DNA of 40,023 bases from a virus. Taxonomy: Duplodnaviria; Heunggongvirae; Uroviricota; Caudoviricetes. Within the stretch, counting starts at the first letter, position 1; the number at the start of each line of letters is the position of its first letter. Where the stretch lies: positions 1 through 40,023 of IMG/VR virus record IMGVR_UViG_2874945390_000002; one strand, written 5' to 3'. Of this stretch, positions 9,001 to 12,000 are shown one piece after another. The position numbers were made by a program.

Positions 9001-12000
9001 GATCTGTCTGGGTTAAGCCGCTGCGTTGGATTACTGTCTGTAGATTTTTTAAGCGAATATCTTTGATTTCCATGCTTGCCTCATTGTTAGCCAAATGCTT
9101 TATAGCGTATTGCTGCATTGTGATCTCATGTGTTAATGTTAGCACGTTGCTAATAACCAATACAGTACGGGGTTTTTATGTCCAGTGGATTGCTCTCAAT
9201 CAGAGGTGTCATGAGCGCGGATGAATGGAGGAGGCTAGCACAGTTTTCTGGGACTAGCGTTGCATACCTGAATCAGATGGCTCTGGGTTTTAGGCGCCCC
9301 TCAGTTGCAATGGCTGAAAGAATTGAGGAGGCGGTATCTAAAGTGTCACCAACCCTCAAATTATCTAAAGAGAGCCTTATTTTTTCTCCATTACGGAAAA
9401 CAAATAGTGAGGTGTGACATGTCACAGCAGTCAACCGTAATGCCAGAGCGCTACTTCCAGAAGCTGCTGTCATGCAGCATCTGGTACGACCCGATCAGCT
9501 GAGTTTATAACCTCATAACGAAGCGGGAAGAGTAAGCCATGCAACAGGATTTAGTCAGGGTTGAAATGCCAGCATTTTATAGCCAAGTAGACACAGAGTG
9601 GATTCAGCAGCAGTTACAGGGGGTACCACCGTCACTGAGACGGAAGGTCGCCCTGAAATATGCGGAGGTATACGAAATCACTTTTGACGCTGAGCCTGTT
9701 TCATTCCGCAAGGAGAACAGAGCAAGGCATGAAGCAAACACAAGGCTTCGCCTGTTCGTGAGAAATCAGGGCAGGGCTTTACAGGGGTATACAACTCAGC
9801 CGCCTCTGGCAGGAACGCAATCGCGCTCCTGATTGGTACCGGGCTTAAAGGTGTCCGGTGGCTGATTGAAAATGGTAAAAATATTTAGACGTCTATATGT
9901 CTGGATGTGTTTACCACCCCCTAAATGTTTATGGGGGAAAGGGGGCGGTGTTGATCTTTTAGCGCGAAGCGCTGGAACAGGCTTTTCCAAGAAGACGGGT
10001 ACATAGGTTAGGTAGATCTCTGTAAAGGGGAAATACCAGAAGATGTCCAGACGCCTAGACGTCCAGATGTAAATGTTCAGAGGTGATTTTATGGTTAACA
10101 GTTTTGATGGTGAAAAATGGCTTCCGGTTCCTGTTGCTCCGTATGGTGATGCTTACCTCGTTAGCTCGGCGGGACGCATCCGTGGGGTTAATCGAATTGC
10201 TGAATCGGAATTTTTTATTCGCCAAATTCGTGGCGTGTTCCTCAAGGGAAGAGTGCGCCGGGATGGATATAAAACCGTTAACCTGAGCTACAAACGTAAT
10301 CGCCAAACTTTTGCCGTACACCGTCTGGTAGCGCTGGCTTTTTGCAGCAACCCTTACAACCACCCTGAAGTGAACCATAAGGACGGCAACAAGCTGAATA
10401 ACCATGCATCCAATCTGGAGTGGGTTAGCCATAGCGAAAACATTCAGCATTCTATTCACACCGGGCTGAATAATTCTCAGGGGGCGAACAACAAACAATT
10501 TAAGGGCCTGATTGTCGCCACAAATATTGCGACCAGGGAAGAGCAAACCTTTTGCGGGAAAAAGGCGCTAATTAGTGCCGGGTTTGATCACGGTAGTGTT
10601 TATGCTGTTATTGCTGGAAGAACAAAGTCTCATCGCGGTCACCATTTCAGGCGCCTCCCGCTGAACCATGGGGAGGCAGCACAATGCAGCTGACAATCAC
10701 GCCGAATTTTGCACAGGAACGGGCGTTAAACATGTTGCGCCGTGACTGGAAGGCAAACGACACCTTCATGGTGTACTCGCCAACCGGTAGCGGTAAAACG
10801 GGTCTGGCCGCCTTCATAGTTGCTGGTTTTGTCAGCCATGGTATGCGCGTTCTGTTCTGTGTTCCGTACACCATCCTGATTGGTCAGACGGCTAATCGGT
10901 TCGTGCAGTATGGTTTACCTGGAGATGAAATCGGTTATATCTGGGCGGATCACCCGAACTACGATCCGGACCGGAAAATTCAGATTGCCAGCGCTGACAC
11001 GCTTATTCGTCGTGTTTTTCCTGAAAATATCGATCTGCTGATTATCGACGAAGCGCACCTGCGTAAAAAACGCATCCTGAAGGATATCGAACGTCTGCGC
11101 GGCAAAGGCGTAAAGGTGATTGGCCTGTCGGGTACTCCGTTTTCCCCGTTCCTGGGCAAATACTATGACCGACTGATTAAGCCGACCACAATCGGCGAGT
11201 TAATCCAGCGTGGCGATCTGAGTAAATACGAATTTTACGCGCCAACTAAGCCGGATCTGAAAGGTGTTAAAACCACATCTTCGCTTGAGTACGGCCGCGA
11301 TTACAACGAAACACAGCTGGCTGAAATCATGTGCGGATCTACGCTGGTGGGCGACATCGTACAGAACTGGTTGGAGAATGGCCGGGATCTACCTACCATC
11401 GCTTTCTGCGTCAACGTAGCTCACGCCAATTATCTGACAATCCAGTTTAACCTGGCGGGTGTTAACGCTGAGGTAATGACCGCCGACACTCCGGTAGATG
11501 AGCGCCAGACCATCATTCACCGCTTTGAAATCGGTGCAACGAAAATCATCGTTAGCGTGGGCGTTCTGGTGGCCGGCTTCGATAGTGACGTTCGTTGCAT
11601 CATCTACGCCAGGCCAACAAAAAGCGAAATTCGCTGGTTGCAGGCGCTCGGGCGTGGCCTGCGCACCGCACCGGGTAAAGAGTCCTGCCTCATCTTCGAT
11701 CACAGCGGCACCGTGCACCGTCTGGGTTATCCGGATTCAATCGAGTACGACGATCTTCCCGGCAAGTCTGATGGCATGGAGGAAAGCGTGCGCCGCGCAG
11801 CTGAGGAACGGGCCGAAAAGCTCCCGCATGAGTGCTCTCAGTGCCATTACATGAAACCTGCAGGCGTGTACGTCTGTCCGAAATGCGGACATAAGCCGTT
11901 GGCAGGTGAAGACGTCGACACAGACACCGGGCGCAAACTTAAAAAATTGGGTAAAAACCAGCTTCAGCCCACAAAGGCACAGAAACAAGCCTGGTGGAGT

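What the first reader, a model, noticed from the sequence alone, without database searches (positions are those of the whole stretch)
9074..9210. Divergent immunity intergenic region with candidate operator palindrome
With SD-supported starts (repressor ATG 9073, Cro-like ATG 9211) the two regulators are separated by 137 bp. This region contains the perfect palindrome TTAGCACGTTGCTAA (9139-9153) and further TTAGC-containing partial repeats (e.g. 9084-9100), consistent with operator half-sites of a bistable switch.
Basis: seen in the sequence. Interest (0 to 1): 0.4.

Follow-up and report, generated by a model that had tools for sequence, protein, structure and literature searches.

The report
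Prophage immunity switch with conserved operators
The flagged inverted repeat is one of five conserved copies of a TAGC-N5-GCTA repressor-binding motif that flank a short, non-cleavable prophage repressor gene, forming an ordinary lambda-style right and left operator pair of a previously undescribed immunity type.

Summary
The sequence TTAGCACGTTGCTAA is at 9139-9153 as reported. It is a 6-3-6 inverted repeat, not a perfect palindrome.

It is one of five nnAGC-N5-GCTAn sites:
- A 9139-9153, B 9102-9116 and C 9087-9101 lie between the repressor gene (8618-9073, minus strand) and the Cro-like gene.
- D 8569-8583 and E 8544-8558 lie just downstream of the repressor gene, on a conserved promoter for a second HTH gene.

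Ten lineages whose repressors are 52-85% identical keep the site cores (95% column identity, against 64% for other intergenic bases). They also keep the site spacing.

The sites track the repressor and Cro-like recognition helices, which are invariant. They do not track the neighbouring HTH2 protein, whose helix varies. Phages with another repressor carry other repeats.

The Cro-like gene most likely starts at ATG 9178, not 9211, so the intergenic region is 104 bp.

The repressor has an XRE-type HTH and a DicA-like C-terminal domain, with no S24 peptidase. It therefore resembles the DicA/Gifsy class of repressors that are controlled by antirepressors. No antirepressor was found.

This is a new member of a known kind and of modest interest. 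Binding is inferred, not shown.

The parts
8618..9073 (-). Immunity repressor gene (151 aa). It has an XRE/HTH_3 N-terminal domain, a disordered linker and a DicA-like helical C-terminal domain. It has no S24 peptidase domain.
   Evidence: Pfam HTH_3. phrog_5736 at 6e-60. NCBIfam DicA residues 72-129 at 3.5e-10. BLASTP to K-12 DicA: 40% over 45 aa, E 2e-10. AlphaFold2 model. Best PDB matches are 5d50, the SPC32H Rep. PGAP makes the same call in E. coli 10671.
9178..9417 (+). Cro-like gene (79 aa), a small weak-HTH protein transcribed divergently from the repressor gene.
   Evidence: Start codon, Shine-Dalgarno sequence and N-terminus are conserved in 10 relatives. The motif SGT..YLNQ.ALGFRRPS is invariant. 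HTH_3 is weak but found in 8 of 9 members. PDB 'Cro' hits are not significant, E 0.28-0.47. PGAP does not annotate it in E. coli 10671.
9139..9153 (.). Operator site A (TTAGCAcgtTGCTAA), the flagged repeat. It is the strongest site in the right operator (OR). It lies over the predicted start of the rightward promoter and over the -10/spacer of the leftward promoter.
   Evidence: The core columns AGCA...TGCTAA are 100% conserved in 10 lineages.
9102..9116 (.). Operator site B (ATAGCgtattGCTGC). It overlaps the -35 element of the rightward promoter. In distant relatives only the half-site TTGCT(A/G) is kept.
   Evidence: The right half is degenerate in L012, L014 and L017.
9087..9101 (.). Operator site C (TTAGCcaaatGCTTT). 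It lies 13-27 nt upstream of the repressor ATG. Its distance from site A is conserved at 51-52 bp.
8569..8583 (.). Operator site D (ATAGCaaaatGCTAA), the best-conserved site of all. It lies just upstream of, and touches, the -35 element of the leftward early promoter.
   Evidence: All 15 columns are at least 90% conserved.
8544..8558 (.). Operator site E (GTAGCgttatGCGTT on the plus strand; AACGCataacGCTAC on the minus strand). It spans the spacer and the first bases of the -10 element of the leftward early promoter. It lies 25 bp from site D.
   Evidence: 18.1 bits. The GCTAC half is invariant and the other half is degenerate. The 25-bp spacing is conserved.
9110..9139 (+). Predicted rightward promoter (PR-like): TTGCTG, 18-bp spacer, TAATGT, preceded by TG. 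The start is predicted near 9146.
   Evidence: This is the top or a top-3 sigma-70 candidate at the same aligned position in 8 of 9 relatives scored; in the window it ranked below the top three. Inferred, with no transcript data.
9136..9144 (-). Predicted leftward extended -10 element (TGcTAACAT) for the repressor gene. It shares 4 bp with the rightward -10 element inside a GCTAAyrTTAGC palindrome. The start is predicted near 9129.
   Evidence: It is positionally conserved in most relatives. The -35 element is weak. This is inferred and is the least secure element in the list.
8541..8569 (-). Predicted leftward early promoter (PL-like): TTGTCA, 17-bp spacer, TACATT.
   Evidence: Promoter scan. 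TACATT is invariant and TTGnnA is conserved in all relatives.
8506..8546 (-). Conserved RNA hairpin. The 5' arm (8546-8533) overlaps the -10 element of the PL-like promoter. The 3' arm (8519-8506) covers the Shine-Dalgarno sequence of the second HTH gene.
   Evidence: Inverted repeat I1. Folding energy -25.1 kcal/mol, z = -8.6. Present in all relatives at -13.6 to -21.4 kcal/mol, with stem positions changed on both arms (CACCTCA/TGAGGTG against CTTTTCA/TGAAAAG).
8026..8505 (-). Second HTH gene (HTH2, the 'L10'-like gene). It is the first gene of the leftward early operon.
   Evidence: Pfam HTH_3 and HTH_19; phrog_4836. Synteny in all relatives. Its HTH is variable among relatives that share the operator motif.

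Best explanation
**What it is.** The 104-bp region 9074-9177 is the right operator (OR) of a lambdoid prophage immunity module. The 151-aa repressor, probably a dimer held by its helical DicA-like C-terminal domain, recognises 15-bp sites of the form nnAGC-N5-GCTAn. The two half-sites are about one helical turn apart.

**At OR.**
- Site A (9139-9153) lies over the start point of the rightward promoter (TTGCTG-18-TAATGT), which drives the Cro-like gene and the replication genes. It also lies over the -10/spacer of a divergent leftward promoter for the repressor gene.
- Site B (9102-9116) lies on the rightward -35 element.
- Site C (9087-9101) lies in the repressor leader.
- Occupancy therefore shuts the lytic rightward operon and negatively autoregulates the repressor.

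**At OL.** A second cluster lies immediately downstream of the repressor gene. Site D (8569-8583) is strong and site E (8544-8558) is weak. They bracket the -35 and -10 elements of the leftward early promoter (TTGTCA-17-TACATT) and shut it.

**The counter-repressor.** The 79-aa Cro-like protein has an equally invariant HTH. It presumably binds the same sites, as Cro does in lambda.

**Induction.** The repressor has no S24 self-cleavage domain. Derepression is therefore expected to need an antirepressor or another non-cleavage route, as for DicA and the Gifsy repressors.

**Shown here:** the sequences, their repetition, their conservation, their co-variation with the repressor, and the domain homologies.

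**Inferred:** protein binding, promoter start points, dimer state and the induction route.
For: **The motif is repeated and clustered.**
- Six of nine exact AGC-N5-GCTA hits in 40 kb lie within 8570-9152.
- A PWM trained on relatives only puts its six best window hits on A-E.

**Phylogenetic footprint across 10 lineages (repressor identity 52-85%).**
- Core columns are 95% identical, against 64% for other intergenic columns and 78% for the N5 spacer. Mann-Whitney p is about 1e-12 and 3e-5.
- In nine relatives, matches of at least 7 of 8 core bases number 37 in 1.9 kb of OR/OL and 16 in the other 48 kb. All 8/8 matches are in OR or OL.
- A-to-C spacing (51-52 bp) and D-to-E spacing (25 bp) are conserved.

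**Assignment to the repressor and Cro-like protein.**
- The repressor HTH (residues 21-47, including P33, S34, I36, S37, Q38, T41, R44, N45) is invariant.
- The Cro-like HTH is invariant.
- The neighbouring HTH2 recognition helix varies among the same loci.
- phiP27 and PhiR49_2 share the HTH2 C-terminal HTH at 97-99% DNA identity, but carry other cI genes and other repeats.
- L011 has the same DicA-like C-terminal domain but another HTH, and carries TCAAG-N6-CTTGA repeats at both OR and OL.

**Promoters.** The PL-like promoter was found by the scan and is conserved. The PR-like promoter is the best or near-best candidate at one aligned position in the relatives.

**Architecture.** Pfam finds an HTH only. 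DicA C-terminal homology is seen. The best structural match is the SPC32H Rep, a repressor crystallised with its antirepressor.

**Literature.** DicA and the Gifsy repressors are short and non-cleavable and are inactivated by antirepressors (PMC3121763; bioRxiv 10.1101/2023.04.14.536235).
Against: - There is no binding or transcript data. All of this is comparative sequence analysis.
- Some conserved blocks coincide with promoter elements: AGCAA of site B is the rightward -35 element TTGCT, and GCTAC of site E overlaps the -10 element TACATT. Part of the conservation could therefore reflect promoter function. In distant relatives B is only a half-site.
- Neighbouring-site spacings are not integral helical turns: B-C 15 bp, D-E 25 bp, A-B 37 bp. 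This is not what simple same-face cooperative dimer pairs predict.
- The leftward promoter has no good -35 element, and site A would occlude it. How the repressor is maintained in a lysogen is therefore unclear.
- No antirepressor gene and no convincing LexA box was found, either in the window or in the intact E. coli 10671 prophage.
- The window's prophage carries IS insertions, so it may be defective.
Confidence: 0.75

Rival explanations
1. The conserved TAGC-N5-GCTA sites are bound mainly or only by the 79-aa Cro-like protein, or by the second HTH protein (HTH2). On this view the 151-aa protein acts elsewhere.
For: The Cro-like HTH is as invariant as the repressor's, so conservation alone cannot separate the two proteins. 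HTH2 is encoded right next to sites D and E.
Against: **Against HTH2.** Its recognition helix varies among loci that share the motif. Its C-terminal HTH is nearly identical in phiP27 and PhiR49_2, which have different repeats.

**Against Cro-only.** L011 shows that a change of repressor HTH goes with a change of operators at both OR and OL. In every characterised lambdoid switch, both proteins share the sites (established knowledge; 10.1101/2023.04.14.536235, introduction).
Confidence: 0.12
2. The repeat at 9139-9153 and its relatives are conserved only because they are promoter elements (-35, -10, extended -10) of overlapping divergent promoters. They are not repressor sites.
For: TTGCT of site B matches a -35 element. 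GCTAAyATTAGC next to site A holds a -10-like hexamer on both strands. GCTAC of site E overlaps TACATT.
Against: - The same bipartite motif, with a fixed N5 gap, recurs five times.
- Some positions match no promoter element. Examples are site C in the repressor leader, the left arm of site D upstream of -35, and the distal arm of site A downstream of the rightward start.
- Core columns are more conserved than the N5 spacers inside the same sites. This is the signature of a dimeric HTH site.
Confidence: 0.08
3. The module is not a lysis/lysogeny switch. It is a DicA-like housekeeping regulator of a cryptic prophage, controlling toxic or host-directed early genes without bistability.
For: - The C-terminal domain is DicA-like.
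- The window's prophage carries IS copies and a transposase between the Q-like antiterminator gene and the structural genes.
- Site A would repress the repressor's own promoter. That gives simple negative autoregulation rather than positive feedback.
Against: - The same module sits in a prophage in E. coli 10671 with a full annotated set of integrase, replication, Q-like antiterminator, lysis, terminase and tail genes. It is also found on viral contigs.
- The layout matches lambda: integrase/early-left operon, OL, repressor, OR, Cro-like gene, replication genes, Q-like antiterminator.
- This rival concerns the physiological role and is compatible with the operator assignment.
Confidence: 0.1

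Closest known systems
DicA/DicC immunity locus of the cryptic prophage Qin (E. coli K-12)
   Same: - A short, non-cleavable HTH repressor is transcribed divergently from a small Cro-like gene.
- Operator repeats lie in the intergenic region and at the leftward promoter (10.1101/2023.04.14.536235).
- The C-terminal domain is homologous: 40% identity over 45 aa, E 2e-10 (NCBIfam).
- The experimentally supported DicA operator Oc, TTGTTAGTCATAACTAACAA (PMC3441716; seen), has an outer half-site TGTTAG like that of site A (aTGTTAGCA).
   Different: - The N-terminal HTH domains show no detectable BLASTP similarity.
- The Oc half-sites are one base pair closer together: TTAGT-N4-ACTAA against TTAGC-N5-GCTAA.
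- The Cro-like proteins are unrelated.
- Here the first leftward gene is an HTH protein, not the dicB operon (which begins with ydfA).
Gifsy-1/-2/-3 prophage repressors (GfoR, GtgR, GfhR) with LexA-controlled antirepressors
   Same: The Gifsy-1/-2 repressor of strain LT2 is 136 aa and is not cleaved on induction. DicA and RacR are listed as members of this group (PMC3121763).
   Different: - No antirepressor and no LexA box was found here.
- Direct sequence comparison with the Gifsy repressors was not run.
- The Salmonella homologues retrieved (P0021, P0022; 55-56% identity) were not checked against the Gifsy repressors.
Lambda, P22 and 434 immunity regions (cI/cro, OR1-3, OL1-3)
   Same: - The gene order and logic are the same: early-left operon, OL, repressor, OR, cro, replication genes, Q.
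- There are several partly symmetric sites of 14-17 bp that overlap divergent promoters.
- The repressor and Cro are expected to share the sites.
   Different: - The repressor has no S24 peptidase domain.
- There are five sites, not six.
- Spacings are 15, 37 and 25 bp instead of about 23-24 bp.
- No site sits near -42 of the repressor promoter, so lambda-type positive autoregulation is not evident.
- The two OR promoters appear to share overlapping -10 elements.
Rep of Salmonella phage SPC32H (PDB 5d50, Rep-Ant complex)
   Same: [quoted passage not shown] The PDB entry is a complex of this repressor with an antirepressor.
   Different: SPC32H Rep is 199 aa and has a different C-terminal domain. 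Only the N-terminal 75 or so residues align.

Membership tests
Lambdoid immunity region (divergent repressor/cro with OR and OL) | A divergently transcribed repressor gene and small Cro-type gene, separated by a short intergenic region. | tested here: met
   8618-9073 (minus strand) and 9178-9417 (plus strand), 104 bp apart. The same layout is found in all relatives.
Lambdoid immunity region (divergent repressor/cro with OR and OL) | Several related, partly symmetric operator sites in the intergenic region that overlap the divergent promoters. | tested here: met
   Sites A, B and C are conserved. They overlap the predicted promoters. The promoters are predicted only.
Lambdoid immunity region (divergent repressor/cro with OR and OL) | A second operator cluster with the same motif at the leftward early promoter, beyond the repressor gene. 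| tested here: met
   Sites D and E lie on TTGTCA-17-TACATT.
Lambdoid immunity region (divergent repressor/cro with OR and OL) | Repressor and Cro physically bind the operators and form a bistable switch. | not testable with these tools
   This needs EMSA or footprinting, reporter fusions and induction assays.
LexA-like, self-cleaving CI repressors (lambda CI, P22 C2) | A C-terminal S24 peptidase domain with a Ser/Lys dyad and an Ala-Gly cleavage site. | tested here: not met
   Pfam finds only HTH families. The protein is 151 aa. The C-terminal region is a helical hairpin. tblastn to H-19B-type CI covers the N-terminal 71 residues only.
DicA/Gifsy-type short non-cleavable prophage repressors | Short protein (about 135-160 aa) with an N-terminal HTH. 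| tested here: met
   151 aa; HTH_3 spans residues 16-65.
DicA/Gifsy-type short non-cleavable prophage repressors | C-terminal domain homologous to that of DicA (the ..ELF..(L/M)PESE...NF.KL..EL.. motif). | tested here: met
   NCBIfam PRK09706 matches positions 72-129 at E 3.5e-10, which is below the whole-protein cutoff because only the C-terminal domain matches. BLASTP to K-12 DicA gives E 2e-10. The motif LFRQMPESEK is invariant in relatives.
DicA/Gifsy-type short non-cleavable prophage repressors | Inactivation by a small antirepressor (Rem, GfoA or GftA), often under LexA control. | tested here: inconclusive
   No credible LexA box was found in the window (the exact hit at 18428 is inside a coding sequence) or in the intact E. 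coli 10671 prophage. No antirepressor is annotated there. A trans-acting antirepressor cannot be excluded.

The most novel reading that the evidence does not exclude
The most novel reading concerns the conserved 13-14-bp hairpin at 8506-8546. It may make translation of the first leftward early gene (HTH2) depend on which promoter made the transcript.

- The hairpin's 5' arm is the -10 region of the PL-like promoter, and its 3' arm covers the HTH2 Shine-Dalgarno sequence.
- The promoter/terminator scan found no terminator-like site between the repressor gene and the hairpin.
- Read-through transcripts from the repressor gene, as made in a lysogen, would contain both arms and hide the Shine-Dalgarno sequence.
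- Transcripts started at the derepressed PL-like promoter would begin inside or after the 5' arm and would be translated.
- A single operator, site A, sitting on two divergent promoters that share their -10 region would add a second layer of control.
Probability: 0.3. Interest if true: 0.5.

Novelty: new member of a known kind. Interest (0 to 1): 0.3.

Why it matters
- It defines the operator motif (nnAGC-N5-GCTAn), the OR/OL layout and the likely promoters of an immunity type for which I found no description. This type is present in about 20 complete E. coli genomes, including O157/STEC strains, and in prophages of Enterobacter, Klebsiella, Salmonella and Pantoea.
- It predicts that these phages are homoimmune even though their repressors are only 52-85% identical.
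- It shows that the Cro-like gene is missed by automatic annotation.
- It adds a case to the growing class of non-cleavable, DicA/Gifsy-like repressors whose induction route is unknown.
- It does not change the general picture of lambdoid switches.

Tried and rejected
- **Genome-contig scan with the repressor**: 579 pattern hits, none confirmed. Species representatives lack the module.
- **Deposited phage genomes**: none carries the repressor. Only the N-terminal 71 aa resemble H-19B-type CI, at 39% identity.
- **LexA boxes**, as a pointer to a Gifsy-type antirepressor. Window hits are no more than chance (17 against 12.9 expected). The exact match at 18428-18443 lies inside a structural gene. 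The intact E. coli 10671 prophage has no match in the early region and two GC-rich matches elsewhere. Rejected as evidence.
- **Intrinsic terminator between the repressor gene and HTH2:** none found.
- **Rfam:** nothing in the immunity region, only two tRNAs at 16192-16338.
- **RNAalifold on a MAFFT alignment of the leader hairpin**: it misaligned the two stem variants and gave a weak consensus. Folding each sequence alone was used instead.
- **Alternative rightward promoter TTAGCA-18-TACAGT** (my reading): rejected. It would start about 3 nt before ATG 9178 and so omit the conserved Shine-Dalgarno sequence.
- **Alternative leftward -10 element TATAAA (9104-9099)** (my reading): not conserved, and it lacks the final T.
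- **Cro-like protein against Pfam and PDB**: only weak HTH_3 matches and non-significant 'Cro' hits.
- **The 14-bp palindrome at 9413-9426 as a binding site:** more likely a stop/start coupling junction. It is broken in L008.
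Full report
**Observation.**
The sequence TTAGCACGTTGCTAA is at 9139-9153. It is the only exact match to TTAGC-N5-GCTAA in the window. It is not a perfect palindrome: the arms TTAGCA and TGCTAA are complementary, but the central CGT is not. One 6-3-6 inverted repeat in about 100 bp is not remarkable on its own. The motif as a set is remarkable. TTAGC-N5-GCTAA with up to 2 mismatches gives 25 hits against 13.7 +/- 3.6 in shuffles. Six of the nine exact AGC-N5-GCTA matches in 40 kb fall within 8570-9152.

**Genes.**
- 8618-9073 (minus strand) encodes a 151-aa protein with an HTH_3 domain and no other Pfam domain. It matches phrog_5736, 'transcriptional regulator', at 6e-60. PGAP annotates the same ORF in E. 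coli 10671.
- The divergent small ORF has two in-frame ATGs, at 9178 and 9211. In ten relatives an ATG or GTG aligned with 9178 is kept, a Shine-Dalgarno sequence precedes it, and the first 11 residues are conserved (L5, R9). The Met at 9211 is not conserved. The gene is therefore most likely 9178-9417 (79 aa) and the intergenic region 104 bp, not 137 bp.
- The Cro-like protein has an invariant SGT..YLNQ.ALGFRRPS segment and weak HTH_3 matches. PGAP does not annotate it.
- Downstream of the repressor gene, after a 112-bp gap, lies a second HTH gene (HTH2, 8026-8505, minus strand).
- To the right follow a 97-aa gene, an HNH endonuclease, a DEAD-box helicase, a toprim protein and an antiterminator. 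This is a lambdoid layout.

**Relatives.**
- No deposited phage carries the repressor.
- Twenty complete E. coli genomes carry the region at about 96.7% identity.
- A protein search gave homologues from 97% down to 52% identity, in Klebsiella, Enterobacter, Salmonella, Pantoea and metagenomes.
- I fetched loci for ten lineages. All have the same arrangement: a small divergent gene, about 105 bp, the repressor gene, about 90-110 bp, then an HTH2-like gene.

**Footprint.**
- Aligning the two non-coding segments shows five conserved sites of the form nnAGC-N5-GCTAn. In window coordinates they are A 9139-9153, B 9102-9116, C 9087-9101, D 8569-8583 and E 8544-8558.
- Core columns are 95% identical. 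Other intergenic columns are 64% identical and the N5 spacers 78% (p about 1e-12 and 3e-5).
- In nine relatives, matches of at least 7 of 8 core bases number 37 in 1.9 kb of OR/OL and 16 in the other 48 kb. Every 8/8 match is in OR or OL.
- The A-C distance (51-52 bp) and the D-E distance (25 bp) are conserved.
- A PWM trained only on relatives puts its six best window hits on these five sites.
- Site D is the most conserved. Sites B and E have one degenerate half, and in distant relatives B is only a half-site.

**Which protein binds.**
- The repressor's HTH (residues 21-47) is essentially invariant across the family, while its linker and tail diverge. The Cro-like HTH is also invariant.
- The recognition helix of HTH2 varies among the same loci.
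- The C-terminal HTH half of HTH2 is shared at 97-99% DNA identity with phiP27 L10 and PhiR49_2. Those phages have S24-type cI genes and quite different repeats at both OR and OL (AGTATCA-type and ATCAAG-type).
- L011 encodes a repressor with the same C-terminal domain but another HTH. It carries TCAAG-N6-CTTGA repeats at both positions.
- The sites therefore track the repressor/Cro pair.

**Promoters (predicted).**
- The gap downstream of the repressor gene holds TTGTCA-17-TACATT on the minus strand. TACATT is invariant and TTGnnA is conserved. Site D touches the -35 element and site E spans the spacer and the start of the -10 element. This is a PL/OL equivalent.
- In OR, the rightward candidate TTGCT(G/A)-17/18-TAAyrT is the best or near-best sigma-70 match at one aligned position in 8 of 9 relatives scored; in the window itself it ranked below the top three. 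In the window it is 9110-9115 and 9134-9139, with a predicted start near 9146. Site B lies on its -35 element and site A on its start.
- A leftward extended -10 element (TGcTAACAT, 9144-9136) is positionally conserved but has a poor -35 element. It shares 4 bp with the rightward -10 element inside a GCTAAyrTTAGC palindrome.
- Site A would block both promoters. That suggests negative autoregulation rather than lambda-type activation. This is the weakest part of the model.

**The repressor.**
[quoted passage not shown] BLASTP against K-12 DicA gives 40% identity over 45 aa (E 2e-10). LFRQMPESEK is invariant.
- The AlphaFold2 model (pLDDT 75) has a five-helix HTH domain (1-66), a disordered linker (71-92) and a helical hairpin (97-141).
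- The best sequence and fold match is the N-terminal domain of the SPC32H Rep, from the Rep-Ant complex 5d50.
- DicA and the Gifsy repressors are short, lack the cleavage site and are inactivated by antirepressors (PMC3121763; 10.1101/2023.04.14.536235).
- I found no antirepressor and no credible LexA box in the window or in the intact E. coli 10671 prophage. The induction route stays open.
- DicA's experimentally supported operator Oc, TTGTTAGTCATAACTAACAA (PMC3441716), has a similar outer half-site but is one base pair shorter between halves. The DicA HTH is not detectably similar to this one, so I treat the resemblance as a lead only.

**Leader hairpin (outside the finding).**
- A hairpin at 8506-8546 on the minus-strand RNA folds at -25.1 kcal/mol (z = -8.6). 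It is present in all relatives, with stem positions changed on both arms.
- Its 5' arm is the -10 region of the PL-like promoter and its 3' arm covers the HTH2 Shine-Dalgarno sequence. No terminator-like site was found after the repressor gene.
- Read-through transcripts would hide the Shine-Dalgarno sequence. Transcripts started at the PL-like promoter would lack the 5' arm.
- phiP27 has the same design. In PhiR49_2 a similar hairpin lies downstream of the predicted -10 element. The promoter-dependent reading is therefore only one possibility.

**Verdict.**
It is also extended by an OL cluster. This is an ordinary lambdoid immunity switch of an undescribed immunity type, with a DicA-like non-cleavable repressor. 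It is a new member of a known kind. Binding, start points, oligomeric state and induction are inferred and need the experiments listed.

Noticed in passing
window 8506-8546 (minus strand); also L020 (phiP27) and L021 (PhiR49_2) upstream of the L10 gene: A strong conserved hairpin (-25 kcal/mol, z = -8.6) has a 3' arm that covers the Shine-Dalgarno sequence of the second HTH gene. Its 5' arm coincides with the -10 region of the PL-like promoter. Stem positions change on both arms among relatives. Analogous hairpins of about -20 kcal/mol precede the homologous gene in two phages of other immunity types.
   Followed up: partly
window about 8261/8262, inside the HTH2 gene (8026-8505): There is a mosaic boundary inside the gene. 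The C-terminal HTH half (8000-8261) is 97-99% identical in DNA to phiP27 L10 and PhiR49_2. The N-terminal half has no such match and travels with the immunity region.
   Followed up: partly
window 9178-9417; L001 between 9535 and 10003: NCBI's PGAP annotation of E. coli 10671 leaves the conserved 79-aa Cro-like gene unannotated.
   Followed up: yes
window 9413-9426: The 14-bp perfect palindrome TGTGACATGTCACA spans the Cro-like stop codon and the ATG of a small downstream ORF (9420-9503). It is kept in L009, L010, L016 and L017 and is broken in L008. It is probably a stop/start translational-coupling junction rather than a binding site.
   Followed up: partly
window 3409-4565 and 5719-6875; 16364-17560: Two nearly identical copies of a two-ORF element (100 aa plus 272 aa, transposase-like by my reading) sit in the early-left region. 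A 398-aa transposase-like ORF lies between the antiterminator/tRNA region and the structural genes. The lysis and terminase genes seen in the E. coli 10671 relative were not seen at this position (the rest of the window was not searched for them). The prophage in the window looks IS-ridden and possibly defective.
   Followed up: no
L011 about 2700-2925 and 3340-3500: A distant relative (31% identity) keeps the DicA-like C-terminal domain but has another HTH. It carries TCAAG-N6-CTTGA repeats at both OR and OL, plus a clear intrinsic terminator after the repressor gene. This is an example of HTH/operator module swapping on a constant C-terminal domain.
   Followed up: partly
window 15662-15678: TTTAGCGATGGGCTACT is an isolated palindromic 8/8 core match to the operator motif. 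It lies inside the 248-aa minus-strand ORF 15121-15867, far from the immunity region, and scores 12 bits on the PWM. It is probably chance.
   Followed up: no
window 10073-10693: An HNH/NUMOD4 homing-endonuclease-like gene lies between the 97-aa gene and the helicase gene. E. coli 10671 has a different 120-aa hypothetical gene at that place.
   Followed up: no
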